Sequence record: OQ708377.1
Length of the DNA: 64,000 nt
Direction: 5' to 3' (one strand)
From: Escherichia phage vB_EcoM_CRP22
Position 1 is the first letter of the stretch, and each line of letters opens with the position of its first letter. Positions 3,115-62,651 of this stretch are shown here, piece by piece. The position numbers and the translations under genes were made by a program. The notes beneath the pieces were generated by a model, which did no database searches, was not told the DNA's origin, and saw only the letters and a program-made list of their open reading frames with translations.

Positions 3115-3513
3115 ATGAAAACAGAATCTAGAGTAATTAATGGTAAGAAAGTAAATATCGTTCTGCTTGGGGCAAGAGATGGTATTAAGATGTCTATGAA
3201 GTTGGGTAAAATTGTTGTTCCAACTTTTGCACAGATGCTATCAAGTCTGACTGATAAAGATAAGAAAGAAGCACCGATGGTTCCATTTAAAGAACTTGTT
3301 GAAGCTTGTTTTGACAGAATTGAAGAAATTAACCTTGAAGAAATGGCTACCCTATTATTTCAAGGGGCAACTGTTGATGACTTCCCACTTAATATTGATA
3401 CATACTTCCAAGCAAACTATGGTGAATTTATTGATTACTTAGCATTTGCGCTGGAGGCAAATTTCGGAAGTTTTTTCGAAGCAAGCATTTTCAAAAGCCT
3501 AACTTCTCAGTAA
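3115..3513 (+). CDS. tail assembly chaperone (gpG-like)
   Basis: 132-aa acidic ORF directly upstream of tape measure; contains slippery heptamer T_TTT_TTC near 3' end. Confidence 0.5.
   Translation: MKTESRVINGKKVNIVLLGARDGIKMSMKLGKIVVPTFAQMLSSLTDKDKKEAPMVPFKELVEACFDRIEEINLEEMATLLFQGATVDDFPLNIDTYFQANYGEFIDYLAFALEANFGSFFEASIFKSLTSQ
3471..3477 (+). other. candidate -1 programmed ribosomal frameshift site (T TTT TTC)
   Basis: X_XXY_YYZ heptamer in zero frame of 3115..3513; the -1 frame is open from 3477 into ORF 3516..3755. Confidence 0.5.
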
Positions 3514-3754
3514 ACATGGGTAACACTCTACAGACACCACTGACTGATGCTGCTGTAGAGGCAACCTATGAAGAAGCAGACGAGATGAAATTTGTGCTTG
3601 CTATTTATGGTATGGAAGGGTGTAAAGAAACACTTGACCAACTCTTTGCTATGACATTCTCTGATTTATTATCATTGAGACAATTTCTTGAAATTCAGAG
3701 GTCGTATAAAGAGGAAATTGCTTACAACGAACTTAGAAGAGCAGGAAAAATGTA

Positions 3755-3755
<1 letters not shown>
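3477..3755 (+). CDS. frameshift extension of tail assembly chaperone (gpGT-like C-terminal part)
   Basis: -1 frame relative to 3115..3513, open from slippery site through the 79-aa ORF 3516..3755; ends overlapping tape measure start (TAATG). Confidence 0.45.
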
Positions 3756-11771
<8,016 letters not shown>

Positions 11772-15468: not shown

Positions 15469-15666
15469 ATGCCTACAATCCTAGCAATTCTTCTAAAAAA
15501 TCTAGGTAGCTTCTTCTGGAAACTCATTTTATCCCTTCTAAGTGAATACATGATTGAGAAAGTGTTCTTTAGGCTTGCAAGGTATCTTGCAAGTAAAACA
15601 GACACACCTATTGATGATGAGTTCGTAGATAACTTAGAAAAAGCTTTTAAGGGGGAGAATAAATGA
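15469..15666 (+). CDS. small membrane protein (holin-like candidate)
   Basis: 65 aa, hydrophobic N-terminal segment (ILAILLKNLGSFFWKLILSLL), after promoter. Confidence 0.3.
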   Translation: MPTILAILLKNLGSFFWKLILSLLSEYMIEKVFFRLARYLASKTDTPIDDEFVDNLEKAFKGENK

Positions 15667-22008: not shown

Positions 22009-22542
22009 TCAAGATAGTTTTGCAAACTCTCCGTGGAGTTTCACAGCAGCTTCACAGTAAGCTTTATGGGCTTCTTCTGGTGTGTCATGGTAACCTAAAA
22101 ACATCTTCTTACCTTTATAACTTATCTGTGCGACCCACTTACCAGACTTCTTCTTAAGACTTACACCCTTGTACCCAGATTTATTGGTGACTAGTTTACC
22201 TTTATTCCAAGCACTTTGAAAGTCATCTGCCTCCCTTAAGTTTACAATCCTGTTGTCAAGTGAATCTCCGTTGATATGGTCAATGATACCTTTTGGCATC
22301 TTGCCATACACGTAAAGCCATGCGAGTCTGTGTGCTTTATGTGCTTTCTTGTCAAAATAGATACTAATCTGTTTATGACCACTTGAATCAGTCTGGATAT
22401 TACCTGCCACCTTTCCTGCATAATTACTATTAAAAACACTAACAGCTCTTGATTTACCTTCTCTACGAAGCCAAGTAAAGACCCCTGTTTCGGGGTCATA
22501 GTGCAGCAGCTCCTTTAAACGTTTTTGTAAAATTAAATCCAT
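22009..22542 (-). CDS. HNH homing endonuclease with AP2-like DNA-binding domain
   Basis: 177 aa; HNH-type core (HRLAWLY...DHINGDSLDNRIVNL) and C-terminal AP2-like segment (SGYKGVSLKKKSGKWVAQISYKGKK); paralog of 32137..32629. Confidence 0.7.
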   Translation of the reverse strand: MDLILQKRLKELLHYDPETGVFTWLRREGKSRAVSVFNSNYAGKVAGNIQTDSSGHKQISIYFDKKAHKAHRLAWLYVYGKMPKGIIDHINGDSLDNRIVNLREADDFQSAWNKGKLVTNKSGYKGVSLKKKSGKWVAQISYKGKKMFLGYHDTPEEAHKAYCEAAVKLHGEFAKLS

Positions 22543-22545
22543 TAA

Positions 22546-25245
22546 TCAATGTACCTCATACCAGCTCTTACCAACCTTTGCTGTACCAGTTACAAGTGTT
22601 TCTTTCCTCAAACCTAAGTTTTTTGAAGCTTGTCCATACATCCAGTCAGCAATTGCTTTCATATCATGTGTCATACCCTCTGGACATTCCCAACTATTTT
22701 CATCGTGATATGCCAGAAGTAACCTTGCTCCGATAGCTGGTTTTCGAGCATTCAGTTTTGTCAGGCCATCTTCACAGGCTTTTCTTGCTGCTAGGTTGAT
22801 GGCCTCATTCTGAATCTGTGCTTCCGAACTCATCAGGAGGTAGTTCAGTAGTTTATGTGGAGATTTGCACCATATCCATGCTCCAGCGACCCTGATATAA
22901 CCACCTTTAGCAATTGAAGAGTTCTTCCCAAAAACCTCTTCCAGAGCCTTTTTAGACGCCTTAAAATCAGCTTCTAAGCTATCAAGTAACTTCTTAATCT
23001 TTGGCAAACGCATATAGTAAGTTTGTTTAGTCAATGCACCTTCTTCCGTAGATGATGCCTTGATAGTTTTTGCAAACTTCTCGTCTCCGGCTCCAAATAA
23101 CAGGGCGTAGATGCCATTTTTGCTCTTCTTACGACCTTTTGTAATCTCGTGAAGAAGTTCCTCATCCTGTGTCTCCCTGCAACGAACAATATCTTCTTCC
23201 TTGTTCAGACCAAAGTAAATACTATTCAGTGTATGTGCATCAGTACCTGTGTAGACTTCGTAGAGGTCATTCTCAGCATCATAACGAAGATACTTATCAG
23301 TTTCTGGATTGAGGTACTTATCGAGATGCTTGCAATAGTATCTCCCATCCTCTTGCTTGGTAAATTCTACTGACTCTTTACCTTCAGTTACCGCTTTGGT
23401 GAAGTCTTTATCACCCATAAAGTTACACAGTAAAACAAGCTGTGCAGAGTTCTGGTCAACTGAAACGATATTAGTCCCTTCCTCGCAAATCCAAACCTCC
23501 CTCATAGGCGCTCCATAGACAGCAGCACCAGACGGTACGTTTACAATACCATATTGTGTCATACGTCCAGTTGAAGTACCAAACACCATTGCACCAGCAC
23601 TAAGGCGACCATCAGGACGAATCTGGTTCAACCAACCTTTTTCATCATCCTTTGAGTTCTCAATAGTCCTACGTCGGTGCATCAAAGTATAGTATTTAGC
23701 AATCTTCTGTCCAAGCTCACCTTCAATCGTATCATAAGATGATTCAGTAAGTTTTGGTGAAGTACGGATTAAGCAAGGCTCAAGCAAATCTGTGTACTTC
23801 TTCACAGACCAGTTATGTTCAATGTACTGGACACCTTCGTGTTCAACATAACTCAAACCACACCGTTCCACCATCTCATCCCACTTAGGATGTTTTGTAA
23901 TCATCTTTTTGTTGTCTTTGAAGCGACAAACCTTAACAGGACGACCATCAGAGTCTTTCTTATAGTTCCAGTCATCTGGAATCCAACCAACTGATTTCAA
24001 GTAGTCTTTGACAACTGCTACCTGAGTCATACGAGAAACTTCGAACTCAATTGGTGTATATGGTGCATCAATCAAACCTGTGTAGCGACTTGACTCAAGC
24101 TCAAAGTGGTTAACAACATGGCTGTTATAGTACTTCACAGTTTTAACTGTTTTTACTGGCTTCCAGTCTTTGCACTTCTTACCAATCTTTGCATTCAACT
24201 CATTGCAAATTGCACGAGCATCCTTCATTGCTACAAAGCCTTCCTTGTACTCTTCACCAGTTACAGAGTTGGTTGGTGTATAGCAATTCCGCTTTTCAAT
24301 GTTAAAAATCTTGGTAGTTGGTTTACCAAATGGCTTGATTTCATATGTCTGCATCTCACCGTTGCGTACCTGTTGACGATACTTTGTCTTAGGGTACTTG
24401 GTAATCCTCTTCAGTCCATCTGCATGGCCAAATGCTTCAACATACTCATTCCAAGCTTTTGCAAATTCTTCTCCAGTGACTTTACCTTTAGTCTTAATAG
24501 TTGGAGGAAGATGTGGTTCAACTTCTGAAGCAAGCTCATTAGTCAACTTGTCAAGTTCCTTTACATGAAACTCCATAAGCTCTTTATCAGCTTTCCAACC
24601 ATTGATAGCCTGTTGACTCATCCAGAAAGATGTTTCTTTAGCTCGCATGTAGGTTTCATAGGTGTCTACGCCACACTTCTTTAGCTTCAGATATTCATTA
24701 TCCAATGCACGTTTAGTTTTGGCGTTGATACGGATATCTTCTACAACACGAGTGAAGATTTCTGCATTCCACACACCCCAATGTTCAATCTCTGGTTTAC
24801 GGACACCAACACGAGCACCCCATGCTGCCAAGCCATGAGCACCTTTATAGCCTTTTGGAGTTGGCCTATCCATCCACTGAACACGAGACTGGATAAGAGA
24901 ATCCTGAAAGAAATTACTCCACGGCTTACACTTTGGATTATCAAAGTTCCACAAATCAGGTGCAATGTGATTGAAAACCCACCAGTCATACCCTAAACCA
25001 TTATGGATGCAAAGTCGTTTTGCCTTTAACGCAAACTCAACACCTTCACGCAAGCCACCCTTAATGTACTTGGTATACTTGTGACCGAGGATAGGCTCAT
25101 CTGTAAAGACCCATACAGGTGGCTCTTCATCGTCAGATTTATAGTCTGCGAAAGCCATTACGTGTACTTTAGTGAACTCAAGGAGTAAACCATCAGTTTC
25201 TGTATCACCAACTAAATGTAAGTTTTTAAAATCTACGTTTTCCAT
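22546..25245 (-). CDS. DNA polymerase, family A (T7-like) with 3'-5' exonuclease
   Basis: Exo I motif LVGDTETDG; Pol motif B-like KSKNGIYALLFGAG; motif C YHDE; start moved to ATG (MENVDF...) preceded by GAGGGAG. Confidence 0.85.
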   Translation of the reverse strand: MENVDFKNLHLVGDTETDGLLLEFTKVHVMAFADYKSDDEEPPVWVFTDEPILGHKYTKYIKGGLREGVEFALKAKRLCIHNGLGYDWWVFNHIAPDLWNFDNPKCKPWSNFFQDSLIQSRVQWMDRPTPKGYKGAHGLAAWGARVGVRKPEIEHWGVWNAEIFTRVVEDIRINAKTKRALDNEYLKLKKCGVDTYETYMRAKETSFWMSQQAINGWKADKELMEFHVKELDKLTNELASEVEPHLPPTIKTKGKVTGEEFAKAWNEYVEAFGHADGLKRITKYPKTKYRQQVRNGEMQTYEIKPFGKPTTKIFNIEKRNCYTPTNSVTGEEYKEGFVAMKDARAICNELNAKIGKKCKDWKPVKTVKTVKYYNSHVVNHFELESSRYTGLIDAPYTPIEFEVSRMTQVAVVKDYLKSVGWIPDDWNYKKDSDGRPVKVCRFKDNKKMITKHPKWDEMVERCGLSYVEHEGVQYIEHNWSVKKYTDLLEPCLIRTSPKLTESSYDTIEGELGQKIAKYYTLMHRRRTIENSKDDEKGWLNQIRPDGRLSAGAMVFGTSTGRMTQYGIVNVPSGAAVYGAPMREVWICEEGTNIVSVDQNSAQLVLLCNFMGDKDFTKAVTEGKESVEFTKQEDGRYYCKHLDKYLNPETDKYLRYDAENDLYEVYTGTDAHTLNSIYFGLNKEEDIVRCRETQDEELLHEITKGRKKSKNGIYALLFGAGDEKFAKTIKASSTEEGALTKQTYYMRLPKIKKLLDSLEADFKASKKALEEVFGKNSSIAKGGYIRVAGAWIWCKSPHKLLNYLLMSSEAQIQNEAINLAARKACEDGLTKLNARKPAIGARLLLAYHDENSWECPEGMTHDMKAIADWMYGQASKNLGLRKETLVTGTAKVGKSWYEVH

Positions 25246-25440
25246 TTGCACTCCCTCTAATTCATTAACCTCATACATTACTGCAAAAAATTATAAAAAG
25301 CAAGTTGACAATGTGCTTGACAAGGTGTTAATCTTTGCGAAGTGGGTTTTTACTTAAAAGGTTACTTAACAGTTTAACTATACAGCTACTTTAAAACTCT
25401 TAAAAGATTATTTAATAGCTTTTAAAAAGCTTTAAAGTAT

Positions 25441-31112: not shown

Positions 31113-32159
31113 ATGGAGAAGTACACATTAACAAAACTTCCCGATTCAGTTACACATGTTTTTATTGACTCTGACAGTATTGCCTATAAAGGTGCTTGTG
31201 TAGTTGAGAAAGCAAAATATAAATATGTCAATAAACTCACAGCAGAAGAGTCTGAGCCATTTGATAATGCGAAAGATGCTGCAAGATGGTTATCAGACCA
31301 GAGAATCCTTGTGGAAGAGCTTGGCCTGACATTTGATGAAGATGAATGGGAAAGACAGACTTGGAAAGAAGCTAAGAGTGAAAAAGAAGCTATCATGGCT
31401 ACTCAACAGGTGCTTCAGGAATGGCTTAAGATTGTTGGTAAAGAAAGAACTTGGGTAGGTTATTTAACAGAGAAAGGTGTGCATAAGCATAAAGACATTA
31501 AAGGTCTTGAGCACCAATATCAAGGTAACCGTAAAGATGCTGTCACACCAACACACTTAGTTGCTTGTCGTGAGTATCTTCTGTCAAGACCAGAGTTTAA
31601 ATTGATTCTTGATGGATTTGAAGCTGACTCTATCGTTATTGCTAAAGCTGAAAAGATGGGTAAAAAGGCTGCCTTAATGAGTATTGATAAAGACCTTCGC
31701 CAAGCTGAAGGGACTTACTGCATTGATATGACCTATGAGAAGTCACCTTTGATTTTCATTGCTGATAACAACGTTGGTGAAATTTGGGATTGTCCAATAA
31801 AATCGACACCAAAAGCTAAGAAGACAGTTGGGGTAGGTTTTAAATTTCTTTGTTACCAAGCTGTGGCTGGTGATAATGCAGATAACTATTTTGGTTTAAA
31901 GGGCGTTGGTAAGGTTGCTGTAATGAAAGCCCTTGAAGGTAAAACTACTTACAAAGAGTGTCTTGATGCAATTTATGAGCTTTATGCTAAGAAAGAGTCA
32001 TACACTTATGTCTCGTGGGATGGTCAAACAATTACCAGAACACCCTTAGAGTTAATGCAGCAACACTTTTTCTTAGCTTATCAGGAAAGAAATAAGAAAG
32101 ACGATTTTACTTTTGATAAGTATGGGTGGACACCAAATGTTAACTCAACAAACTCTTAA
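31113..32159 (+). CDS. 5'-3' exonuclease (T7 gp6-like / FEN family)
   Basis: 348 aa; segments HVFIDSDSIAY and MSIDKDLRQ resemble the T7 gp6 acidic-cluster motifs (recalled from memory). Confidence 0.5.
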   Translation: MEKYTLTKLPDSVTHVFIDSDSIAYKGACVVEKAKYKYVNKLTAEESEPFDNAKDAARWLSDQRILVEELGLTFDEDEWERQTWKEAKSEKEAIMATQQVLQEWLKIVGKERTWVGYLTEKGVHKHKDIKGLEHQYQGNRKDAVTPTHLVACREYLLSRPEFKLILDGFEADSIVIAKAEKMGKKAALMSIDKDLRQAEGTYCIDMTYEKSPLIFIADNNVGEIWDCPIKSTPKAKKTVGVGFKFLCYQAVAGDNADNYFGLKGVGKVAVMKALEGKTTYKECLDAIYELYAKKESYTYVSWDGQTITRTPLELMQQHFFLAYQERNKKDDFTFDKYGWTPNVNSTNS

Positions 32160-32629
32160 AGAATACCTACACTATGACCCCGAAACAGGGGGTCTTTACT
32201 TGGATTAAGAAGTCTGCTAAGCACACAAAAATTGGTTCTGTTGCAGGTACAAACTTAAGGGGATACATCAGAATCTATTTGTTTGGTAAGGGTTATTATG
32301 CACATACACTGGCTGTTCTGTATATGGATGGTTACCTCCCTGAGTGTGTTGACCATAAAAATCATGTAACCCTAGATAATCGCTGGATAAATCTTAGGGC
32401 ATGTACGTTATCAGAGAACCAATGTAATAGGTTACTCAATAAGAATAATAAATCAGGTGTTAAAGGTGTGTACTACAAAAAACAGTATGGTAAGTGGTCT
32501 ACACAGATAACTTTTAAGAAGAGAGTTTACTTCTTCGGCAACTATGACACGATTGCTGAAGCAGCAGAGGTTGTAAATAGGGAACGTCAACGGTTACACA
32601 GAGAGTTTGCTAATAAAGGTGATGAATGA
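32137..32629 (+). CDS. HNH-AP2 homing endonuclease, reading frame disrupted at a G5 run (possible pseudogene or homopolymer error)
   Basis: ATG 32137 frame encodes MLTQQTLKEYLHYDPETG, matching the paralog N-terminus, then stops at 32206; body (VFTW...) continues one nt out of frame from the G5 run at 32188-32192 to 32629. Confidence 0.5.
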
Positions 32630-33126
32630 GAAAAATAAAAGGTTTTGGCAATTGCCCTGAATATGGACATTGGACTTCACTATGTGGTGAGGTTGACCCA
32701 GCAAAGCACTTTGGTTTTGTCTACCTAGTGTACTGCAAAAAGACTGGACAGTACTATTTGGGTAAAAAACAGCTTAATAGCGTGACCAAAAGAAAAGTTG
32801 CTGGTAAGACTCGGAAGAAGGTAGTCACTAAGGAGAGTGATTGGATGACTTATGAGACTTCTTCTGAGTATATTAAAAAAGATATTGAGAGCTTTGGAAA
32901 AGAATTTTTTGACTTTTACATTATTCAGACCTACTACACAAAAGGTGGCCTAGTCTATGGTGAAGCAAACCTTCAACATAAATTCGATGTAATGACAAAA
33001 AGGATTGACTCGAAGCTCAGACTCTTCTACAATGCCAATATTGCAGCAATTAAGTTTATCACTAAAGAAACTTATGAAGATGCTGAAAAAAGAATCCATA
33101 AGGTAATGAAAGCAAATCGTGCTTGA
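32626..33126 (+). CDS. putative GIY-YIG-like endonuclease
   Basis: 166 aa; FGFVYLVYCKKTGQYYLGKK resembles the GIY-(x10)-YIG motif; follows an HNH endonuclease. Confidence 0.35.
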   Translation: MRKIKGFGNCPEYGHWTSLCGEVDPAKHFGFVYLVYCKKTGQYYLGKKQLNSVTKRKVAGKTRKKVVTKESDWMTYETSSEYIKKDIESFGKEFFDFYIIQTYYTKGGLVYGEANLQHKFDVMTKRIDSKLRLFYNANIAAIKFITKETYEDAEKRIHKVMKANRA

Positions 33127-37097: not shown

Positions 37098-37355
37098 ATG
37101 AAAGATTTAATAGAAAAACATGAGCGACCTATATACTTGCTCCACAAGCCTCGGAAAACGATGTACTATGTGAGTAGCACAGATATGATGATAAAACAAA
37201 AGGATGACTCATGGGTTGCTGGTATCTCTTACATCTCTACAGCAGATGGTAAAATCTACGCAAGACCTTATGAGATGTTCAACAAAGAAAATTGGGAAGT
37301 TTTAGACAGAAAACAAGCCTTAGAAATGATAAAGAAAGGAGAAATCACGCTATGA
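37098..37355 (+). CDS. hypothetical protein
   Basis: Start at ATG 37098 (MKDLIEK...) preceded by GGAGAG; stop overlaps nrdB start (ATGA). Confidence 0.3.
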   Translation: MKDLIEKHERPIYLLHKPRKTMYYVSSTDMMIKQKDDSWVAGISYISTADGKIYARPYEMFNKENWEVLDRKQALEMIKKGEITL

Positions 37356-56584: not shown

Positions 56585-56791
56585 ATGCTTTACAGTCGTG
56601 AATTGATGGTTACAACTAACGTTAACACAAAGGTAAAACGTTTTTATATGCAAGTTTGCGGCGCATGGCGTAGAATATCAGAAGCTGATTATTGCAACTA
56701 TGTAGAAACGGCAATCAACTCCAATTGCTACCTTACGAAGAACACAAAGAAACTTATAAAACAGACAGCGGTTTACTATTACGATATATAA
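56585..56791 (+). CDS. small early-region protein
   Basis: 68 aa; ATG preceded by conserved CTAAACTGGAGAATCAAAA leader. Confidence 0.4.
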   Translation: MLYSRELMVTTNVNTKVKRFYMQVCGAWRRISEADYCNYVETAINSNCYLTKNTKKLIKQTAVYYYDI

Positions 56792-56880
56792 AAGTACTTT
56801 ACAGGGGGCTTAAAAGCTGATATCTTAAGCCCCAGATAAAGAGCTTTACTAAATTAACCCTTAAACTAGGAGATTCAAAA
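56792..56880 (+). promoter_or_regulatory. intergenic module A copy 1 (TTTACA-N17-TATCTT overlapping GC hairpin, conserved leader and RBS)
   Basis: aagtactttacagggggcttaaaagctgatatcttaagccccagataaagagctttac...taaactaggagattcaaaa. Confidence 0.5.
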
Positions 56881-57261
56881 ATGGCTTATCGTGCACCTAA
56901 ATTCATCAACAAAGACAACTTTCGCAACACACTGGAGAAGTCACTTGATGAAAATTTTAAAGGTAACATTGTTGTTGTTCACTCGTTTAATTTCAAGTAT
57001 GATATCAACGGGAATAAAATCAACCATTACACGGCAACCATGTTAGATGGTACACTATCAAGTGAAAAAGCCGTACTGAATGCACTTGCAGGACGTGGTA
57101 AAAACCTGATAAGATGCGATAAGAGACGTTATCAGGGTGGCGCATATGGTTATGATGATGCTGTTTATCATCTTGAAAATATGGGCTATTCAGTGGAAAA
57201 AGCTGGAGTGTCTCAAATAATCGGCAGTGACGGCTATGTGACAATTTTCAAAATTAACTAA
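56881..57261 (+). CDS. early-region protein
   Basis: 126 aa, follows module A. Confidence 0.4.
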   Translation: MAYRAPKFINKDNFRNTLEKSLDENFKGNIVVVHSFNFKYDINGNKINHYTATMLDGTLSSEKAVLNALAGRGKNLIRCDKRRYQGGAYGYDDAVYHLENMGYSVEKAGVSQIIGSDGYVTIFKIN

Positions 57262-57263
57262 TA

Positions 57264-57349
57264 AAGTACTTTACAGGGGGCTTATAGTTCGATAAAGTAA
57301 GCCCCAGATAAAGAGCTTTACCACTAAATCCTAAATTGGAGATTCAAAA
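57264..57349 (+). promoter_or_regulatory. intergenic module A copy 2
   Basis: TTTACA-N17-TAAAGT; hairpin arms ggggctta/taagcccc (compensatory variant). Confidence 0.5.
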
Positions 57350-57640
57350 ATGGCTATTATTAAAAACGTTGTAATTCCTGCAAAAACTCGTGATGACGCT
57401 CGCATCATGGCGAAAAAGTTAGGCGGGAAAGTGGTTGACAACGGAAAACAAACTGCTGTAAGGTGGAACGTGAAGGCGGATAAACAAATGAATTTAAAAA
57501 ATTCACCAATAAACCTTTTTACATGTGTAAACACTATCGGGAAAACGAATGTATACACTAAAAAGGCATATATCAGACGCATCGCCATGACGTCACCTAT
57601 TCGCACAATGAGAAGTCATGCAAAGCTGAAAATTAAGTAA
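57350..57640 (+). CDS. early-region basic protein
   Basis: 96 aa, follows module A. Confidence 0.4.
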   Translation: MAIIKNVVIPAKTRDDARIMAKKLGGKVVDNGKQTAVRWNVKADKQMNLKNSPINLFTCVNTIGKTNVYTKKAYIRRIAMTSPIRTMRSHAKLKIK

Positions 57641-57642
57641 TA

Positions 57643-57730
57643 GAGTACTTTACAGGGGGCTTAAAAGCTGATATCTTAAGCCCCAGATAAAGAGCTTTAC
57701 TACTCAATCCTTAAACTAGGAGATTCAAAA
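57643..57730 (+). promoter_or_regulatory. intergenic module A copy 3
   Basis: Near-identical to copy 1. Confidence 0.5.
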
Positions 57731-58243
57731 ATGAAAACTGTAGACGCTACCTTTGAAGTTGTAAAAGAAAAATTTTCCATCATTTACGAAGCTGTCAATT
57801 GCTACGAAGCAAGCCATAATCTTGATAATTGGAAGTTTACAGATGACCATCAAGGCGGTGTGACTATTAAAAACCCCAACTGTCAGCGTAATGGATTTAA
57901 ATATGCAATTCCTTTACATTACAGCCTTAAACAGCTTTCAATTGACTATGCAAAACAAGGCCGGGAAAATCCATCGAAAGAGGCTTACATCAGCTTACAG
58001 AAAGAACTAGAAAGAGATTTAGAGGCTTCAGAATATAACATCGCCGCGAAAGTTGTAGATGCAAACGGTAGCACGGTTTTAGAGAGTTTTTATATTGGTT
58101 ATGCTTTCGATTGGTGCTACAGTGACGGCGATGATTTAGATGACAGACTAAAAGAGGAAGTGAACAACGCAGACGCAGAATCTGAAGTATTAGAACGCTT
58201 GGAAGCATTAAAAGATTCAGTGATGAATATCTTTAAGAACTAA
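57731..58243 (+). CDS. early-region acidic protein
   Basis: 170 aa, follows module A. Confidence 0.4.
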   Translation: MKTVDATFEVVKEKFSIIYEAVNCYEASHNLDNWKFTDDHQGGVTIKNPNCQRNGFKYAIPLHYSLKQLSIDYAKQGRENPSKEAYISLQKELERDLEASEYNIAAKVVDANGSTVLESFYIGYAFDWCYSDGDDLDDRLKEEVNNADAESEVLERLEALKDSVMNIFKN

Positions 58244-58246
58244 ATA

Positions 58247-58330
58247 GATTTCTTTACACGGGGCTAACAAGCGGATATGATAGCCCCAGATAAAGAGATT
58301 TATCAACTGTCCTAAACTGGAGATTCAAAA
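58247..58330 (+). promoter_or_regulatory. intergenic module A copy 4 (diverged)
   Basis: TTTACA-N17-TATGAT; hairpin arms ggggcta/tagcccc; leader ...cctaaactggagattcaaaa. Confidence 0.45.
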
Positions 58331-58627
58331 ATGAAACTATCAAATAAAGTTAGGGAAAACCTTAGTAAATTACTCAACAAAATTGATTTTATCGAGACCT
58401 CAAGAAATACTCATGAGGTGATGGAATGGTTACACGGCAAAATAAAAGGCCGTCGTGTAGTGATTTGCTTATGGAACAGTTGCAGGGAATATAAAAAACC
58501 TGTATTACAAGTTAATATTTATGATGATACTTTTAAAAGTCCTGTAAAGTCTAAAAGCGATTTATTAGAATCCTATGAGATAACTGTAAATGGCAAAGTA
58601 TCACGTAAAGAGGAAACACCATGTTAA
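58331..58627 (+). CDS. early-region protein
   Basis: 98 aa. Confidence 0.4.
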   Translation: MKLSNKVRENLSKLLNKIDFIETSRNTHEVMEWLHGKIKGRRVVICLWNSCREYKKPVLQVNIYDDTFKSPVKSKSDLLESYEITVNGKVSRKEETPC

Positions 58628-58953
58628 TGATTGGTATCACTGCAACCGTTGCCATTTTCGCGCTATATAAGGCGTATAAGGCCTATAATCTAGCAAATAA
58701 GGCAATCACACAGCAGGTTAGCAATAACTTGGTAGAGAGCTTTCTAGGACGCCTCAGTGATGAGCAAATAAAGCGGCTAGAGATGAGCTTCAGATATAAA
58801 GCGAAAACCTATCAGATAAGTGACATCTTCAAAGATGATTTTCAGCTTGTCGATGATTATAACTCTCTGATAAATGCTTTAAATGTCAGTGACTTAAAAG
58901 ACTATTACGCTGTAATTGTTCAAGAATTGAGCAAACGAAAAAATTCCTCTTGA
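58621..58953 (+). CDS. early-region membrane protein
   Basis: 110 aa; N-terminal hydrophobic helix (MLMIGITATVAIFALY); start overlaps previous stop. Confidence 0.4.
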   Translation: MLMIGITATVAIFALYKAYKAYNLANKAITQQVSNNLVESFLGRLSDEQIKRLEMSFRYKAKTYQISDIFKDDFQLVDDYNSLINALNVSDLKDYYAVIVQELSKRKNSS

Positions 58954-59039
58954 TTTTGGTTTTTAAAACAAGTAAATTACTAATCAACGGGAGGGATAAC
59001 CTCCTACTAAATAAAGTCCTTAAACTAGGAGATTATAAA
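58941..59039 (+). repeat. intergenic module B copy 1 (GTAAATTACTAATCAACGG + GGGAGG/CCTCC hairpin + conserved leader)
   Basis: tcttgattttggtttttaaaacaagtaaattactaatcaacgggagggataacctcctactaaataaagtccttaaactaggagattataaa. Confidence 0.5.
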
Positions 59040-59312
59040 ATGTATACTACTAACAACGGTCGCACTTTAAACGTAACCCTACGTCACTATGTAAACGGTG
59101 TGATGTGCTTTGATGATTTACAAGCTGAGCAACATATCTTGGATTGGCAACTTGCAGGACTCCAAAAAACTGCTACCGGATACGGGAAAAAGATTCCAAC
59201 TAGCTGGAAAGTCCACTACAAAGGACGTTTGCGCAGAATTTATCAGGATATATGTAGCAATAGCGCATCAAGTTACATCATGGTAAAAGGTAAAAAATTA
59301 CACTTAGTATAA
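59040..59312 (+). CDS. early-region protein
   Basis: 90 aa starting MYTTNNGRTL at the conserved ATG after module B; ORF-track N-terminal extension is a translated repeat. Confidence 0.4.
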   Translation: MYTTNNGRTLNVTLRHYVNGVMCFDDLQAEQHILDWQLAGLQKTATGYGKKIPTSWKVHYKGRLRRIYQDICSNSASSYIMVKGKKLHLV

Positions 59313-59398
59313 AGTACTTTACAAGGGGCTTATAGTTCGATAAAGTAAGCCCCAGATAAAGAGCTTTACTAACTAAATCCTAAATTGGAGATTCAAAA
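59312..59398 (+). promoter_or_regulatory. intergenic module A copy 5
   Basis: TTTACA-N17-TAAAGT; same hairpin variant as copy 2. Confidence 0.5.
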
Positions 59399-59803
59399 AT
59401 GGCTATTAATAACCGTGAGTTATCAATCTTAAAAGCACGTTTGACCGTTAACCGGATTAATGTTATCACGTCATCAGCACCGGATGAAACACTTCAAAAC
59501 ATTATTAGGAAGATTCAAAGTGTTATCTTAGACGTTGAAAGCGTAAAAAACTCATTGGCTGACGTTGCAGCAGGTATCACGCTAGACGGTGCACAATATG
59601 AAATGGTTGACATGTTAGGCAAATCTAAAGTAATGAATAAAGAGTTAGATTTGAAAATGTTCCGTTTTGCTGTTAAGGTGTGGCTATCCATCGAATATGA
59701 CGCAAATTTTGCAATCGCTGACTTTTTCGCAACATGGTTACAACGTAATTTAACAAATTATGATTTTCGTGATATCTGCGATGCAATTTACGCAGAACTT
59801 TAA
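59399..59803 (+). CDS. early-region protein
   Basis: 134 aa. Confidence 0.4.
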   Translation: MAINNRELSILKARLTVNRINVITSSAPDETLQNIIRKIQSVILDVESVKNSLADVAAGITLDGAQYEMVDMLGKSKVMNKELDLKMFRFAVKVWLSIEYDANFAIADFFATWLQRNLTNYDFRDICDAIYAEL

Positions 59804-59908
59804 AAATTTCTCTTGATTTTGGTTTTTAAAACAAGTAAATTACTAATCAACGGGGAGGGAATGACCTTTCCCCCACTAAGTAAAGTCCTTAAACTAGGAG
59901 ATTCGAAA
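59804..59908 (+). repeat. intergenic module B copy 2
   Basis: tctcttgattttggtttttaaaacaagtaaattactaatcaacggggagggaatgacctttccccc...ccttaaactaggagattcgaaa. Confidence 0.5.
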
Positions 59909-60112
59909 ATGGCTATTATTAATGGTTTAAACATTGAAACTACTCACATCAAAGATATTAAAGTCGGCGATATAGTCCTTTTTCACGGCGTAGAAAAAAC
60001 CGTCACTGAAAAGGATATCAAAGAGGATTCATTCATGGGTCGGTCGCTCTTCGGTGATTCCTATTGCTTAGGTTACCGTGCAGTTTTAAAAGTTGTCAAA
60101 AATAATCGTTAA
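59909..60112 (+). CDS. early-region protein
   Basis: 67 aa starting MAIINGLNIE at the conserved ATG. Confidence 0.4.
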   Translation: MAIINGLNIETTHIKDIKVGDIVLFHGVEKTVTEKDIKEDSFMGRSLFGDSYCLGYRAVLKVVKNNR

Positions 60113-60123
60113 AGTACTTTACA

Positions 60124-60198
60124 AGGGGCTTAAAAGTTGATATCTTAAGCCCCAGATAAAGAGCTTTACCACTAAATCCTAAACTGGAGATTCAAAAA
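60124..60198 (+). promoter_or_regulatory. intergenic module A copy 6
   Basis: TTTACA-N17-TATCTT; hairpin ggggcttaa/ttaagcccc. Confidence 0.5.
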
Positions 60199-60765
60199 AT
60201 GAAATGCTATCACGGCACTACTCTGAAAAACTTTGTAAACCTGCTTAAAGGTGGCGACAAGCCGGAAGGTATCTGGAACTGCTCTTACATGGATGATTGT
60301 TTTTACGTTTACCCGATGGATAAGATTATCAAGACGGAATGCCTGGAAGATGAAGAAGACCCTTACATCCGTGAACGCTGCATTCAAAACGCTTTAGAGT
60401 CGGGGCTTATTACGGCAGCTTTCCAAATGGAAACGCAGGAAGTGATTGTAATTGAGATGGATATCCCAGAGGAAGAGCTTGAGGATGATTATTCTTGTGA
60501 CAACATGAGCGAAATCGCCAGCTTTACCGGTTACTTTGATAAAGATTGGATTATCGGTATTCACTCGACGAAATTTAGTGCAATGTATGCGCCATTCTTT
60601 GTTCCTGATACAACTAACCATAATTTGGGCTATATTGACGATGATTTGTTGAGTATTGCAAAAATTGTACAGAATAGCGGGGAGACTTCTTCTGTGTTTT
60701 GTGACCTGCTGGATAAAATTACCGAGAATCTCACAGAGCGCAATCTAAGCGACTTTTTAGACTAA
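60199..60765 (+). CDS. early-region protein with ADP-ribosyltransferase-like (H-G-T) N-terminal motif
   Basis: 188 aa; MKCYHGTTLKNFVNLLKGGDKP resembles the YHGT NAD-binding strand-helix of diphtheria-toxin-class ARTs and Tpt1/KptA (recalled); aromatic-rich SYMDDCFYVY; acidic stretches. Confidence 0.35.
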   Translation: MKCYHGTTLKNFVNLLKGGDKPEGIWNCSYMDDCFYVYPMDKIIKTECLEDEEDPYIRERCIQNALESGLITAAFQMETQEVIVIEMDIPEEELEDDYSCDNMSEIASFTGYFDKDWIIGIHSTKFSAMYAPFFVPDTTNHNLGYIDDDLLSIAKIVQNSGETSSVFCDLLDKITENLTERNLSDFLD

Positions 60766-60794
60766 GCAGTACAAAGACACTAATTTCCAACTTA

Positions 60795-60815
60795 AGGCCC
60801 ATACAGGGCCATTTA
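60795..60815 (+). terminator. hairpin terminator-like element
   Basis: ggcccatacagggcc followed by ATTT. Confidence 0.4.
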
Positions 60816-60828
60816 GAGGGCTTAAATC

Positions 60829-61062
60829 ATGCTTACAACCGTTTATCTCATCCTTTCTATTTGTAACGGTCATTCATGTGATTTTAAAGGGCTTGAGGAG
60901 TTTACAGGAAGTAAAGAAAATGCTATTCAGGTTTGCCAGATAGCAAGGCAAGACTATCCCGCCAGTGATGATATACAATGCTACTTCAAAACAGAAGATA
61001 ACGACGGCGTCTATTTTGATAGTGTCGATGGTCAATATGAAATTATCATTGAAAAAGACTAG
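60829..61062 (+). CDS. early-region small protein with N-terminal hydrophobic segment
   Basis: 77 aa; MLTTVYLILSICNGHSC... Confidence 0.35.
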   Translation: MLTTVYLILSICNGHSCDFKGLEEFTGSKENAIQVCQIARQDYPASDDIQCYFKTEDNDGVYFDSVDGQYEIIIEKD

Positions 61063-61078
61063 ACAAGCCTGATAAAAG

Positions 61079-61153
61079 TCTGTAAATTACTAATCAACGG
61101 GGAGGTAATGACCTTCCCCACTAAATAAAGTCCTTAAACTAGGAGATTCTAAA
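61079..61153 (+). repeat. intergenic module B copy 3
   Basis: tgtaaattactaatcaacggggaggtaatgaccttccccactaaataaagtccttaaactaggagattctaaa. Confidence 0.5.
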
Positions 61154-61402
61154 ATGTATACTAAAACTCAACTAAAAAACATGGTTAGCAATGGCTTAAT
61201 GGATGAAGTCTATAAAGAGTGTAGACGATATGGAGAAATCAAAGGTAAAACAAGCTATGAATACACCCACACAATAAACTTTAAAACTAATGAGCAAAAA
61301 ACCGACTTAATAACTAGCATTATAATTGAGTATAAAGGTATAATATGGTCCTTTGAGCTAGTGAAAGGTGAGTGCATAGAAATCGAATACAAAGACGCTT
61401 AA
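61154..61402 (+). CDS. early-region protein
   Basis: 82 aa. Confidence 0.4.
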   Translation: MYTKTQLKNMVSNGLMDEVYKECRRYGEIKGKTSYEYTHTINFKTNEQKTDLITSIIIEYKGIIWSFELVKGECIEIEYKDA

Positions 61403-61488
61403 AAGTACTTTACAAGGGGCTTAAAAGTTGATATCTTAAGCCCCAGATAAAGAGCTTTACCACTAAATCCTAAACTGGAGATTCAAAA
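61403..61488 (+). promoter_or_regulatory. intergenic module A copy 7
   Basis: Identical core to copy 6. Confidence 0.5.
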
Positions 61489-61830
61489 ATGGCTTATGTA
61501 ACCGTAATTACTGATAAAGCTGGCTCATCTTGGTCAACTCAAGTAAGTGATAAGATGTCACCTATGCAGTGCCTAAAATACTTTGAGCAGTGGAACAAAG
61601 GCGAGGATGTCAGCCCCTTTCAAGTGATGCAAATCATCCATACAGATAACGAAGGAAACAAAACGACACTTAATAGTGAGTATTACACAAATCGTTTTGA
61701 GAGTCGAGTTGAAACGATGAAGGGGCTGCGTGAGGCCGGATATGGGCACATTGCCGCCTTGTTATGGGATGACCTGCTAAAAAGTCAGCGTATCAGCTAC
61801 ATAAAACCTGAAAAAATATTCATCAGTTAA
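61489..61830 (+). CDS. early-region protein
   Basis: 113 aa. Confidence 0.4.
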   Translation: MAYVTVITDKAGSSWSTQVSDKMSPMQCLKYFEQWNKGEDVSPFQVMQIIHTDNEGNKTTLNSEYYTNRFESRVETMKGLREAGYGHIAALLWDDLLKSQRISYIKPEKIFIS

Positions 61831-61977
61831 TCAATAACTTACAAAAAACTTTTAAAAAAGTGTTGACAATCCCTATTGACATTGGTAACTTTGTTCGAGG
61901 GGGCTTATCTTAAAGGGATTCACTTAAAAGGTTCTTTATAGATAAGCTCAAAAAATTACTTGCAATCAGATATCAAA

Positions 61978-62051
61978 ACAAGTAAATTACTAATCAACGG
62001 GGAGGGATTAACCTTCCCCACTAAACAAAGTCCTAAACTGGAGATTCAAAA
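61978..62051 (+). repeat. intergenic module B copy 4
   Basis: acaagtaaattactaatcaacggggagggattaaccttccccactaaacaaagtcctaaactggagattcaaaa. Confidence 0.5.
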
Positions 62052-62582
62052 ATGAACAAGTTCAAAGCTATCAACTTCATTCGTTCAAATAGTGTCATGT
62101 CAAAGCCTGTTAAAGATACCTATGAATTTCGTTGTAATGGTGTACATTTTGCAACAATCACCAAATCAGAAAACGGGGCTTATTACGTCCATCGTCGTAA
62201 TGTTGCAACCGTTGCAGTCTCTCACTTTATGCAAGCTGTAGCGGAATTATTACCGTTATTCTTAGAGATTTATCTAGATGATTGTAAAAACGTTCACAGA
62301 CACGTTAAAAACCTTTTAAACGGTTATAGAATGGCTTATGAACGTTCTATCAAGTCCTTAAACAAGTTCTATAAAGCCCCTGTAAATACCGTTTCAATGG
62401 CCTATGGCGTAGGTGGCTGGACTGTTAACCTTTCTCTAGTGGAAGAAATCGAGCTTTATGATTTACGCCCTGATGGATACTCTAAGACACTGGGAGAGGG
62501 CTTATCTTTCAATATCAAGAACTTAGAGAAAACTTTAAAAGATATTGAAAAAGATATTGACGAGACAACCAAAAATCTGTAA
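62052..62582 (+). CDS. early-region protein
   Basis: 176 aa; stop codon TAA forms the start of the next module B core (cTGTAAATTAC). Confidence 0.4.
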   Translation: MNKFKAINFIRSNSVMSKPVKDTYEFRCNGVHFATITKSENGAYYVHRRNVATVAVSHFMQAVAELLPLFLEIYLDDCKNVHRHVKNLLNGYRMAYERSIKSLNKFYKAPVNTVSMAYGVGGWTVNLSLVEEIELYDLRPDGYSKTLGEGLSFNIKNLEKTLKDIEKDIDETTKNL

Positions 62583-62651
62583 ATTACTAATCAACGGGGA
62601 GGGGATGACCTTCCCCACTAAGTAAAGTCCTTAAACTAGGAGATTCAAAAA
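62577..62651 (+). repeat. intergenic module B copy 5
   Basis: ctgtaaattactaatcaacggggaggggatgaccttccccactaagtaaagtccttaaactaggagattcaaaaa. Confidence 0.5.

What the first reader, a model, noticed from the sequence alone, without database searches (positions are those of the whole stretch)
32137..32629. HNH-AP2 homing-endonuclease paralog with its N-terminus in a different frame at a G5 homopolymer
The ATG at 32137 encodes MLTQQTLKEYLHYDPETG..., matching the N-terminus of the intact paralog at 22009..22542 (LKELLHYDPETGVFTW), but this frame stops at 32206. The rest of the protein (VFTWIKK... through the HNH and AP2 regions) is read one nucleotide out of frame from the GGGGG run at 32188-32192; removing one G restores ETGVFTW exactly. 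This is either a recently inactivated endonuclease gene, a homopolymer sequencing error, or a slippage-dependent expression switch.
Basis: seen in the sequence. Interest (0 to 1): 0.4.

Follow-up and report, generated by a model that had tools for sequence, protein, structure and literature searches.

The report
One-base frameshift in phage homing endonuclease
One copy of a selfish, mobile DNA-cutting enzyme gene in this Felix O1-like phage carries a single extra G that breaks its reading frame; this is an ordinary recent inactivating mutation or a sequencing slip, not a regulatory switch.

Summary
The ATG at 32137 opens a frame that stops at 32206-32208. The rest of an HNH-AP2 homing endonuclease gene continues in the +1 frame to 32629. 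Deleting one G from GGGGG at 32188-32192 restores a 163-aa protein.

Exact protein matches show the window is Escherichia phage vB_EcoM_CRP22 (Felixounavirus). GenBank annotates only the 151-aa remainder there (WIL01227.1).

The G5 run is unique:
- All 16 fetched relatives have G4, as do 12 IMG/VR loci and the in-window paralog.
- None of 134 matching phage records has G5.
- No metagenome or genome contig has it.

Apart from the extra G, the gene is 492/492 identical to the intact allele of Salmonella phage SWJM-02. It lies in a 572-nt identical tract whose flanks differ by 4-6%. The block was therefore exchanged recently, and the lesion is very young or artefactual.

Intact orthologues are under purifying selection. 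The lost N-terminus is a conserved helix plus strand. The internal ATG has no Shine-Dalgarno sequence. A reference comparison found no other frameshifted gene in the 64-kb window. An independent G-run frameshift allele of the same gene exists in metagenomes.

Estimated odds: real slippage mutation about 0.55, consensus error about 0.3, recoding about 0.05. Low interest.

The parts
32137..32208 (+). 5' fragment of the HNH-AP2 gene in its native frame: 23 codons plus a TAA stop. The first 18 codons are the authentic N-terminus, MLTQQTLKEYLHYDPETG.
   Evidence: It is identical to the N-terminus of intact orthologues.
32124..32129 (+). Shine-Dalgarno sequence (GGGTGG) serving the native ATG at 32137.
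   Evidence: Duplex energy with the anti-SD is -5.8 kcal/mol, against a median of -6.4 for long-ORF starts in the window and -0.9 for the internal ATG at 32174.
32188..32192 (+). GGGGG run holding one extra G relative to every relative. This is the frameshift lesion.
32174..32629 (+). 151-aa ORF in the +1 frame, identical to GenBank WIL01227.1. From 32192 onward it encodes the remainder of the endonuclease: strand beta2, the HNH motif and the AP2 domain.
32176..32194 (+). Six-base-pair G+C-rich hairpin, GACCCC-GAAACAG-GGGGTC, followed by TTTACTT. It is encoded by the conserved YDPETGVF block, and the G run forms its 3' arm.
   Evidence: terminator-like by a simple scan; fold z-score only -1.3 to -2.0.
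32103..32674 (+). 572-nt tract identical to Salmonella phage SWJM-02 except for the extra G. Its flanks differ by 4-6%. This is a recently exchanged homing-endonuclease block.
   Evidence: (differences at 32102, 32188 and 32675 only).
31113..32159 (+). Upstream 5'-3' exonuclease gene (WIL01226.1). Its last 23 nt overlap the native HNH start, and the lesion does not affect it.
32626..33126 (+). Downstream SegE-like GIY-YIG homing endonuclease gene (WIL01228.1, labelled 'NAD synthetase' in GenBank). Its ATG overlaps the HNH stop (ATGA).
   Evidence: Pfam PF19835 at 94 bits.
22009..22542 (-). Intact HNH-AP2 paralogue (177 aa, WIL01216.1), 42% identical at the protein level.
22471..22500 (-). 30-nt block in the paralogue, identical to 32173-32203 apart from having four Gs.

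Best explanation
The locus is a free-standing HNH-AP2 homing endonuclease gene lying between the 5'-3' exonuclease gene and a SegE-like GIY-YIG gene of Escherichia phage vB_EcoM_CRP22 (Felixounavirus). In this isolate a G4 run has gained one G, most likely by replication slippage. Ribosomes starting at the native, Shine-Dalgarno-served ATG at 32137 therefore stop after 23 codons. The catalytic HNH and AP2 DNA-binding parts are left in the +1 frame behind an ATG that has no ribosome-binding site. The gene is a very young pseudogene, at the first step of the usual decay of a selfish endonuclease gene once it is fixed or unneeded. Shown here: the lesion, its uniqueness, the intactness and purifying selection of orthologues, the recent exchange of the gene block, the structural importance of the lost N-terminus, and the absence of a Shine-Dalgarno sequence at 32174. 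Inferred: that the extra G is in the phage DNA rather than only in the assembly, and that the protein is not made.
For: (1) G5 is unique. All 16 fetched relatives have G4. The G5 30-mer has 0 hits in IMG/VR against 12 for G4, and 0 in metagenome and genome contigs. None of 134 matching phage records reaches 100% identity; the best, 98.8%, is exactly the one-base gap.
(2) The gene is otherwise 492/492 identical to the intact SWJM-02 allele. It sits in a 572-nt tract with no differences, while the flanks show 59 differences in 979 nt and 35 in 898 nt. The lesion is therefore the only change since a recent exchange.
(3) Intact orthologues are under purifying selection: 16-23 synonymous against 5-7 nonsynonymous differences for most comparisons, and mean pN/pS of 0.17 even with one frameshifted record included.
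(4) The same gene carries an independent +1 lesion at its second G run (GGGGA to GGGGGG) in two ENA metagenome contigs that differ from each other by 3 SNPs in 2372 nt. G-run frameshift alleles of this gene therefore exist and are inherited in nature.
(5) The assembly shows no homopolymer-error signature. A tblastn frame-switch scan against SWJM-02 found no other interrupted coding gene in the parts of the 64-kb window that align to that genome (checked), although the window holds 263 A/T runs and 12 G/C runs of five or more.
(6) The lost segment matters. Y13 and G18 are invariant and L7, L11, P15 and T17 nearly invariant across 67 homologues. In an AlphaFold model with mean pLDDT 95, the lost residues form a helix and the beta strand that pairs with VFTW.
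(7) The internal ATG at 32174 has an anti-SD duplex energy of -0.9 kcal/mol. That is weaker than the random-position median of -2.2 and far weaker than -5.8 for the native start.
Against: There are no reads, and only one deposited sequence carries G5, so a consensus error at a homopolymer cannot be excluded. The complete lack of any other lesion or private substitution in the gene is also exactly what an error would look like. The sequencing platform of CRP22 is unknown, and no paper on the phage was found. The frame-switch scan used a single reference genome and does not cover window segments that lack an SWJM-02 homologue. Ribosomes terminating at the exonuclease stop (32157-32159) could reinitiate 15 nt downstream at 32174, and low-level +1 slippage at GGG_G or CUU_U is conceivable. 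'No protein is made' is therefore an inference.
Confidence: 0.55

Rival explanations
1. Sequencing or assembly error: the phage really has GGGG and an intact 163-aa gene, and the fifth G is a homopolymer miscall in the deposited consensus.
For: Every relative has G4. The gene is otherwise base-for-base identical to an intact allele. The lesion sits in a homopolymer. Only the single GenBank-derived protein carries the frameshift N-terminus MTPKQG, with no Logan or ENA read-derived copy. Another record of this gene with a homopolymer indel (GE_vB_7A, A6 to A5) is flagged UNVERIFIED.
Against: No other coding frameshift was found in the parts of the 64-kb window aligned to SWJM-02, despite about 275 homopolymers of five or more bases. 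These include 56 A/T runs of six or more, which error-prone platforms miscall first. The one lesion falls in a dispensable selfish gene, where a real mutation is tolerated. A rough rate argument (my inference) puts a real G-run slippage within the age of the tract above a single isolated consensus error.
Confidence: 0.3
2. Recoding: full-length endonuclease is still made from the G5 allele. This could happen by +1 ribosomal slippage, either with tRNA-Gly on GGG_G (giving the exact wild-type protein) or with tRNA-Leu on CUU_U (VF changed to GL). It could also happen by RNA polymerase dropping one G. The extra G would then act as an expression throttle or switch.
For: Two +1-permissive P-site codons lie before the 0-frame stop (GGG_G at 32188-32191 and CUU_U at 32194-32197). 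The extra G creates AGGGGG, the same SD-like stimulator as in the E. coli prfB site AGGGGG-UAU-CUU-UGA, just upstream of an in-frame CUU_U (PMC13245932). Homing endonucleases need very little protein (general knowledge).
Against: The G5 state is not conserved in any relative, whereas programmed sites are conserved. The spacer is 1 nt instead of the UAU or UCU codon. The A-site codons (GGU, UAC) are ordinary sense codons, not a stop or a rare codon (for the requirements). Five Gs is well below the run length at which bacterial RNA polymerase slips efficiently (established knowledge, not tested here).
Confidence: 0.05
3. The lesion is real, but the N-terminally truncated 151-aa protein annotated in GenBank (from ATG 32174) is made by reinitiation after the exonuclease stop codon and remains an active endonuclease.
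For: ATG 32174 lies 15 nt downstream of the exonuclease stop at 32157-32159. The HNH motif and the AP2 domain are entirely within the 151-aa ORF.
Against: There is no Shine-Dalgarno sequence (-0.9 kcal/mol). The truncation removes an invariant Tyr, several nearly invariant residues, a helix and the first strand of a beta-hairpin modelled at pLDDT 98. No natural homologue among the 67 aligned starts at this position.
Confidence: 0.1

Closest known systems
HNH-AP2 free-standing homing endonuclease genes of phages (Felix O1 ORF257 at the same locus; the HNH-AP2 class counted in T4-related phages RB49, RB43, RB16 and JSE by Petrov et al. 2010, PMC2993671)
   Same: It shares the HNH_3 nuclease motif followed by an AP2 DNA-binding domain and the conserved N-terminal LxxxLxYDPETGxFxW motif. 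It is a free-standing insertion between conserved replication genes, with allelic replacement among related phages and a recently exchanged block.
   Different: This copy has a one-base insertion that separates the first 18 codons from the rest. No cleavage site or activity is known for any Felixounavirus member.
I-HmuI (PDB 1U3E), the HNH homing endonuclease of Bacillus phage SPO1
   Same: It is the best solved sequence relative of the nuclease half (profile E = 1.5e-8 over residues 31-111), with beta-hairpins preceding a beta-beta-alpha-metal motif.
   Different: I-HmuI is intron-encoded, and its C-terminal DNA-binding part is not an AP2 domain (from my own knowledge of the structure; not tested here). 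Foldseek did not recover it as a whole-chain match.
Degeneration phase of the homing-endonuclease gene life cycle (Goddard and Burt model; from my own knowledge)
   Same: A selfish endonuclease gene picks up a disabling mutation while orthologues elsewhere remain intact and mobile. Independent disabled alleles of the same gene exist.
   Different: Only a single lesion is present and no further decay has occurred, so the degeneration is either at its very first step or not real.
The prfB (RF2) programmed +1 frameshift site, AGGGGG-UAU-CUU-UGA-C
   Same: It has an AGGGGG SD-like element followed by an in-frame CUU_U, and a +1 shift would restore the protein.
   Different: The spacer is 1 nt rather than a codon. 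The A-site codon is a sense codon (UAC) instead of UGA. The site is not conserved in any orthologue.

Membership tests
HNH-AP2 free-standing homing endonuclease | HNH (beta-beta-alpha-metal) nuclease motif with conserved His and Asn residues | tested here: met
   Pfam HNH_3 scores 42 bits against a cut-off of 24.8. The D-H pair and three Asn residues are invariant or nearly invariant in 67 homologues. The profile hits I-HmuI at E = 1.5e-8.
HNH-AP2 free-standing homing endonuclease | C-terminal AP2 DNA-binding domain | tested here: met
   Pfam AP2 scores only 19.3 bits, below the 33.3 cut-off. However, the family profile hits plant AP2 structures at E = 3.5e-7. The model also superposes on the ERF1 and TEM1 AP2 domains (Foldseek probability 1.0, rmsd 1.1-2.5 A).
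HNH-AP2 free-standing homing endonuclease | Intact open reading frame from the native start codon | tested here: not met
   The frame from ATG 32137 stops at 32206-32208 because of the extra G.
HNH-AP2 free-standing homing endonuclease | Mobile-element distribution: variable occupancy or alleles at a fixed site in related genomes, with exchange independent of the flanks | tested here: met
   Of 243 related records, 20 carry this allele across the query, while others such as Felix O1 carry a divergent allele at the same site. A 572-nt tract identical to SWJM-02 lies within flanks that differ by 4-6%.
HNH-AP2 free-standing homing endonuclease | Site-specific DNA cleavage and homing into endonuclease-free alleles | not testable with these tools
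   This needs biochemistry or co-infection crosses.
Programmed +1 ribosomal frameshift (prfB type) | Frameshift site conserved among orthologues | tested here: not met
   G5 occurs in 0 of 16 relatives, 0 of 12 IMG/VR loci and 0 of 134 phage records.
Programmed +1 ribosomal frameshift (prfB type) | P-site codon whose tRNA can re-pair in the +1 frame | tested here: met
   GGG_G (32188-32191) and CUU_U (32194-32197) are both 0-frame codons upstream of the stop.
Programmed +1 ribosomal frameshift (prfB type) | Slowly decoded A-site codon (a stop or a rare codon) next to the shifty codon | tested here: not met
   The A-site codons are GGU and UAC. The requirement is described in PMC13245932.
Programmed +1 ribosomal frameshift (prfB type) | SD-like stimulator one spacer codon (3 nt) upstream of the shifty codon | tested here: not met
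   AGGGGG is present, but it is separated from CUU by 1 nt (one search compared).
Transcriptional slippage site | Long homopolymer, typically 8-9 or more A or T (established knowledge) | tested here: not met
   The run is five Gs.
Decaying homing-endonuclease pseudogene | Several lesions or relaxed constraint (private nonsynonymous changes) in the disrupted copy | tested here: not met
   There are zero substitutions relative to the intact SWJM-02 allele, and the extra G is the only lesion.

The most novel reading that the evidence does not exclude
The extra G is real and does not silence the gene. By creating AGGGGG one nucleotide upstream of an in-frame CUU_U, and by making GGG_G itself slippery, it would convert the gene into a leaky +1 frameshift allele. 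That allele would make a trickle of full-length endonuclease, which would be an accidental, newly arisen prfB-like recoding site in a selfish gene.
Probability: 0.05. Interest if true: 0.4.

Novelty: already known. Interest (0 to 1): 0.1.

Why it matters
It matters little in itself. The practical use is for annotation. The GenBank CDS WIL01227.1 (151 aa from ATG 32174) is best treated as the 3' part of a frameshifted HNH-AP2 gene (pseudogene or sequencing error), not as a native protein. The neighbouring 'NAD synthetase' is a SegE-like GIY-YIG endonuclease. The 572-nt identical block and the independent G-run frameshift alleles give a small, clean example of homing-endonuclease turnover (recent transfer followed by immediate decay) in Felixounaviruses. 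If the lesion proved to be leaky it would be a minor curiosity for recoding research.

Tried and rejected
- Exact-protein contig look-ups for the 151-aa ORF and both neighbours found nothing. Provenance came from cluster membership instead.
- Literature searches for CRP22 gave no paper and no sequencing platform.
- The raw blastn indel list against SWJM-02 was dominated by intergenic and divergent regions, so I replaced it with a tblastn frame-switch scan.
  - Its other flags were an intergenic site at 15660, an intergenic repeat near 58300, and a change to the C-terminus of a small ORF at 37299 upstream of the nrdB-like gene. None is a broken gene.
- A reference-free scan of homopolymers flanked by long ORF arms in different frames returned only normal gene junctions, plus the tail-chaperone site.
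- Foldseek against the PDB supported only the AP2 half. E-values were weak and there was no whole-chain match to I-HmuI.
- The hairpin spanning the G run was considered as a terminator or slippage stimulator. Its fold z-scores are unremarkable (-1.3 to -2.0) and the G run lies inside the stem rather than after it, so it was not pursued as a mechanism.
- The window contains no tRNA gene, so a phage-encoded frameshift-suppressor tRNA-Gly could not be examined.

Full report
**What is in the sequence**

The ATG at 32137 lies 7 nt downstream of GGGTGG. It opens a frame reading MLTQQTLKEYLHYDPETGGLYLD and stops at 32206-32208. One nucleotide out of frame, an ORF runs to 32629. From 32192 it reads VFTWIKK... 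through an HNH motif and an AP2-like region, and its first ATG at 32174 gives 151 aa.

The run at 32188-32192 is GGGGG. Deleting one G yields a clean 163-aa ORF. On that restored protein Pfam finds HNH_3 at 42 bits (cut-off 24.8) and AP2 at 19.3 bits (below the 33.3 cut-off). The paralogue at 22009..22542 (-) passes both thresholds.

**Where the window comes from**

The region is 95-97% identical to many Felixounavirus genomes (Felix O1-like myoviruses of Salmonella and E. coli), but to none at 100%. The 151-aa ORF is exactly WIL01227.1, 'putative HNH endonuclease [Escherichia phage vB_EcoM_CRP22]'.

Three other window proteins are also exact CRP22 proteins from an 87,193-bp contig:
- the upstream exonuclease, WIL01226.1;
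- the downstream gene, WIL01228.1;
- the paralogue, WIL01216.1.

The window is therefore CRP22, the exemplar of species Felixounavirus CRP22. The depositors' gene caller annotated only the post-frameshift ORF. The consecutive accession numbers show that no CDS was called for the 23-codon fragment. I found no paper on this phage and no sequencing platform.

**The extra G is unique**

- All 16 relatives I fetched read ACAGGGGTC with four Gs, including the divergent Felix O1 allele and a Mooglevirus. The records that are annotated call an intact 163-174-aa gene.
- The 31-nt G5 sequence has 0 hits in IMG/VR, while the G4 version has 12.
- G5 has 0 hits in the metagenome and genome collections.
- An 86-nt query across the site matched 134 phage records. 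The best reached 98.8%, which is 85 of 86 and corresponds to the one-base gap. None reached 100%.
- The paralogue inside the same window carries the identical 30-mer with G4.

The ancestral state is G4, and the window has a private +1 insertion.

**Age and context of the lesion**

Apart from the extra G, the gene is 492/492 identical to the intact gene of Salmonella phage SWJM-02. Differences between the two genomes fall at 32102, 32188 (the G) and 32675. That gives a 572-nt identical tract.

The left flank has 59 differences in 979 nt and the right flank 35 in 898 nt. At those rates about 28 differences would be expected in the tract, so its identity is not chance. The block, meaning the HNH ORF plus 35-45 nt on each side, was exchanged between lineages recently. 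This is the behaviour expected of an active homing endonuclease gene. The frameshift is the only change since then.

Among intact orthologues, synonymous changes far outnumber nonsynonymous ones. Typical comparisons show 16-23 synonymous against 5-7 nonsynonymous differences. Mean pN/pS is 0.17 even with one frameshifted record included. The gene is therefore normally kept functional.

**Is the assembly error-prone?**

A tblastn frame-switch scan of all SWJM-02 ORFs against the window flagged four places. Only the HNH is a broken gene. The other three are:
- an intergenic site at 15660;
- an intergenic repeat near 58300;
- a one-base difference at 37299 that changes the C-terminus of a small ORF just upstream of the next gene's start at 37353.

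The window holds 263 A/T runs and 12 G/C runs of five or more bases, and 56 A/T runs of six or more. A homopolymer-error-prone data set would be expected to break several genes, and this one breaks none other. The scan used one reference and does not cover segments without an SWJM-02 homologue.

**Do real frameshift alleles of this gene occur?**

Yes. Cluster mates of the orthologue include a 116-aa protein. Its contigs, from ENA assemblies, show the same gene split into 50-aa and 116-aa ORFs. The cause is a different +1 lesion at the gene's second G run, GGGGA to GGGGGG. Two of these contigs differ by 3 SNPs over 2372 nt. The allele has therefore been inherited and has diverged, which an assembly error would not do.

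A third record (GE_vB_7A, flagged UNVERIFIED) has A6 to A5 in the same gene. That one may well be an error.

**Consequence for the protein**

In an alignment of 67 homologues the N-terminal motif LKExLHYDPETGVFTW is among the best conserved parts. In 163-aa numbering, Y13 and G18 are invariant, and L7, L11, P15, T17 and F20 are at least 90% conserved. An AlphaFold2 model has mean pLDDT 95.2 and pTM 0.84. It places residues 4-10 in a helix and 11-14 in a strand paired with 19-22 (VFTW), all at pLDDT of about 98.

The frameshift removes the helix and the first strand. The 151-aa ORF replaces YDPETG with MTPKQG. Its ATG has essentially no Shine-Dalgarno complementarity. The anti-SD duplex energy is -0.9 kcal/mol, compared with:
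- -5.8 for the native start;
- a median of -6.4 for long-ORF starts;
- a median of -2.2 for random positions.

Reinitiation after the exonuclease stop codon 15 nt upstream remains possible but is unproven.

**Could it be recoding?**

A +1 shift would restore the frame. Two 0-frame codons before the stop allow perfect or wobble re-pairing in the +1 frame:
- GGG_G, which would give the exact wild-type protein;
- CUU_U, which would change VF to GL.

The extra G also creates AGGGGG, the SD-like stimulator of the E. coli prfB site AGGGGG-UAU-CUU-UGA-C (PMC13245932). The similarity stops there. The spacer is 1 nt rather than a codon, the A-site codons are ordinary sense codons, and the site exists in no relative.

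Five Gs is also too short for efficient polymerase slippage (established knowledge). The hairpin GACCCC-GAAACAG-GGGGTC that spans the run is terminator-like by a simple scan but statistically unremarkable. The run lies inside the stem rather than after it. I rate programmed or useful recoding at about 5%.

**Verdict**

The feature is real in the deposited sequence and was correctly described. It is a private one-base insertion in an otherwise pristine, recently exchanged HNH-AP2 homing endonuclease gene.

Without reads I cannot separate a genuine slippage mutation from a consensus error. I favour the mutation (about 0.55 against 0.3) for three reasons:
- the rest of the window shows no homopolymer-error signature;
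- the lesion sits in a dispensable selfish gene;
- inherited G-run frameshift alleles of this very gene exist elsewhere.

Either way it is an ordinary event of a known kind, and the gene family is already annotated. Interest is low.

**Comparison with known systems**

The nuclease half is related to I-HmuI (1U3E, profile E = 1.5e-8). The C-terminal half has the AP2 fold. 'HNH-AP2' is a recognised class of free-standing phage homing endonuclease genes (Table 5 of PMC2993671). Felix O1 is reported to carry six homing-endonuclease-related sequences (PMC8300805).

The locus meets the sequence and distribution criteria for that class but fails the criterion of an intact ORF. Cleavage and homing could not be tested.

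Noticed in passing
window 3115-3755 (slippery site 3471-3477): Two small ORFs (3115..3513, 132 aa; 3516..3755, 79 aa) lie immediately upstream of the 742-aa tape-measure gene (3755..5983). The heptamer T_TTT_TTC sits in the zero frame of the first ORF. A -1 shift there enters a 94-codon open frame that contains the second ORF. This looks like the conserved tail-assembly-chaperone programmed -1 frameshift, so it is a likelier real recoding site in this window than the HNH lesion.
   Followed up: partly
window 32170-32203 (+) and 22471-22504 (-); also L016 1070-1103: A block of about 34 nt (GCACTATGACCCCGAAACAGGGGTCTTTACTTGG) is identical at the DNA level between HNH-AP2 genes that are only 42-57% identical as proteins. 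In the block 10 of 10 codons are identical, against 22 of 60 at other conserved residues (about 4.6e-5 if codons are independent). The block forms a 6-bp G+C hairpin followed by a T-rich tail. This points to gene conversion between paralogues or to selection on the nucleotide or RNA sequence. It was not resolved.
   Followed up: partly
window 32626-33126 (+): The gene annotated 'NAD synthetase' in CRP22 and in many relatives is a SegE-like GIY-YIG homing endonuclease (Pfam PF19835, 94 bits). Two different homing endonuclease genes therefore sit in tandem, with a 4-nt ATGA overlap.
   Followed up: yes
window 32103-32674 compared with OQ594353.1 (L001): A 572-nt tract is identical to Salmonella phage SWJM-02 and covers just the HNH ORF plus 35-45 nt on each side, while the flanks differ by 4-6%. 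This is a sharp mosaic boundary that indicates recent lateral exchange (homing) of the endonuclease block.
   Followed up: yes
L031 1359-1851; L032 380-872 (ENA metagenome contigs): The same HNH-AP2 gene carries an independent +1 frameshift at its second G run (GGGGA to GGGGGG), which splits it into 50-aa and 116-aa ORFs. The two contigs differ by 3 SNPs in 2372 nt, so the broken allele is inherited in a natural lineage.
   Followed up: yes
L005 (MG969404.1, GE_vB_7A, UNVERIFIED), gene position about 340: There is a one-base deletion in an A6 run of the orthologous HNH gene. The record is unannotated and flagged UNVERIFIED, so a sequencing error is likely.
   Followed up: partly
window about 56790-62650 (for example 56791-56883, 57640-57736, 59802-59911, 61082-61163, 62579-62651): An intergenic element of about 75-115 nt is repeated many times. 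It contains TCAACGGGGAGGG...CCTTCCCC (a G+C hairpin) followed by ...CTTAAACT(A)GGAGATTCAAAAATG (ribosome-binding site and start codon). These look like terminator plus promoter/RBS cassettes between small early genes.
   Followed up: no
window 37299 (small ORF ending at 37355, upstream of the ATG at 37353): A one-base difference from SWJM-02 (GGGAAGTTTT against GGGAATTTT) changes the C-terminal reading frame of a small ORF just before the ribonucleotide reductase small-subunit-like gene. I did not check whether it is private to this phage.
   Followed up: partly
window 23100-23111 compared with OQ594353.1 76286-76565: SWJM-02 has roughly 270 extra nucleotides inside its DNA polymerase gene, which is annotated there as two CDSs. 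The window has one uninterrupted 910-aa ORF (22546..25278, - strand). This may be an insertion or intervening sequence in the relative.
   Followed up: no
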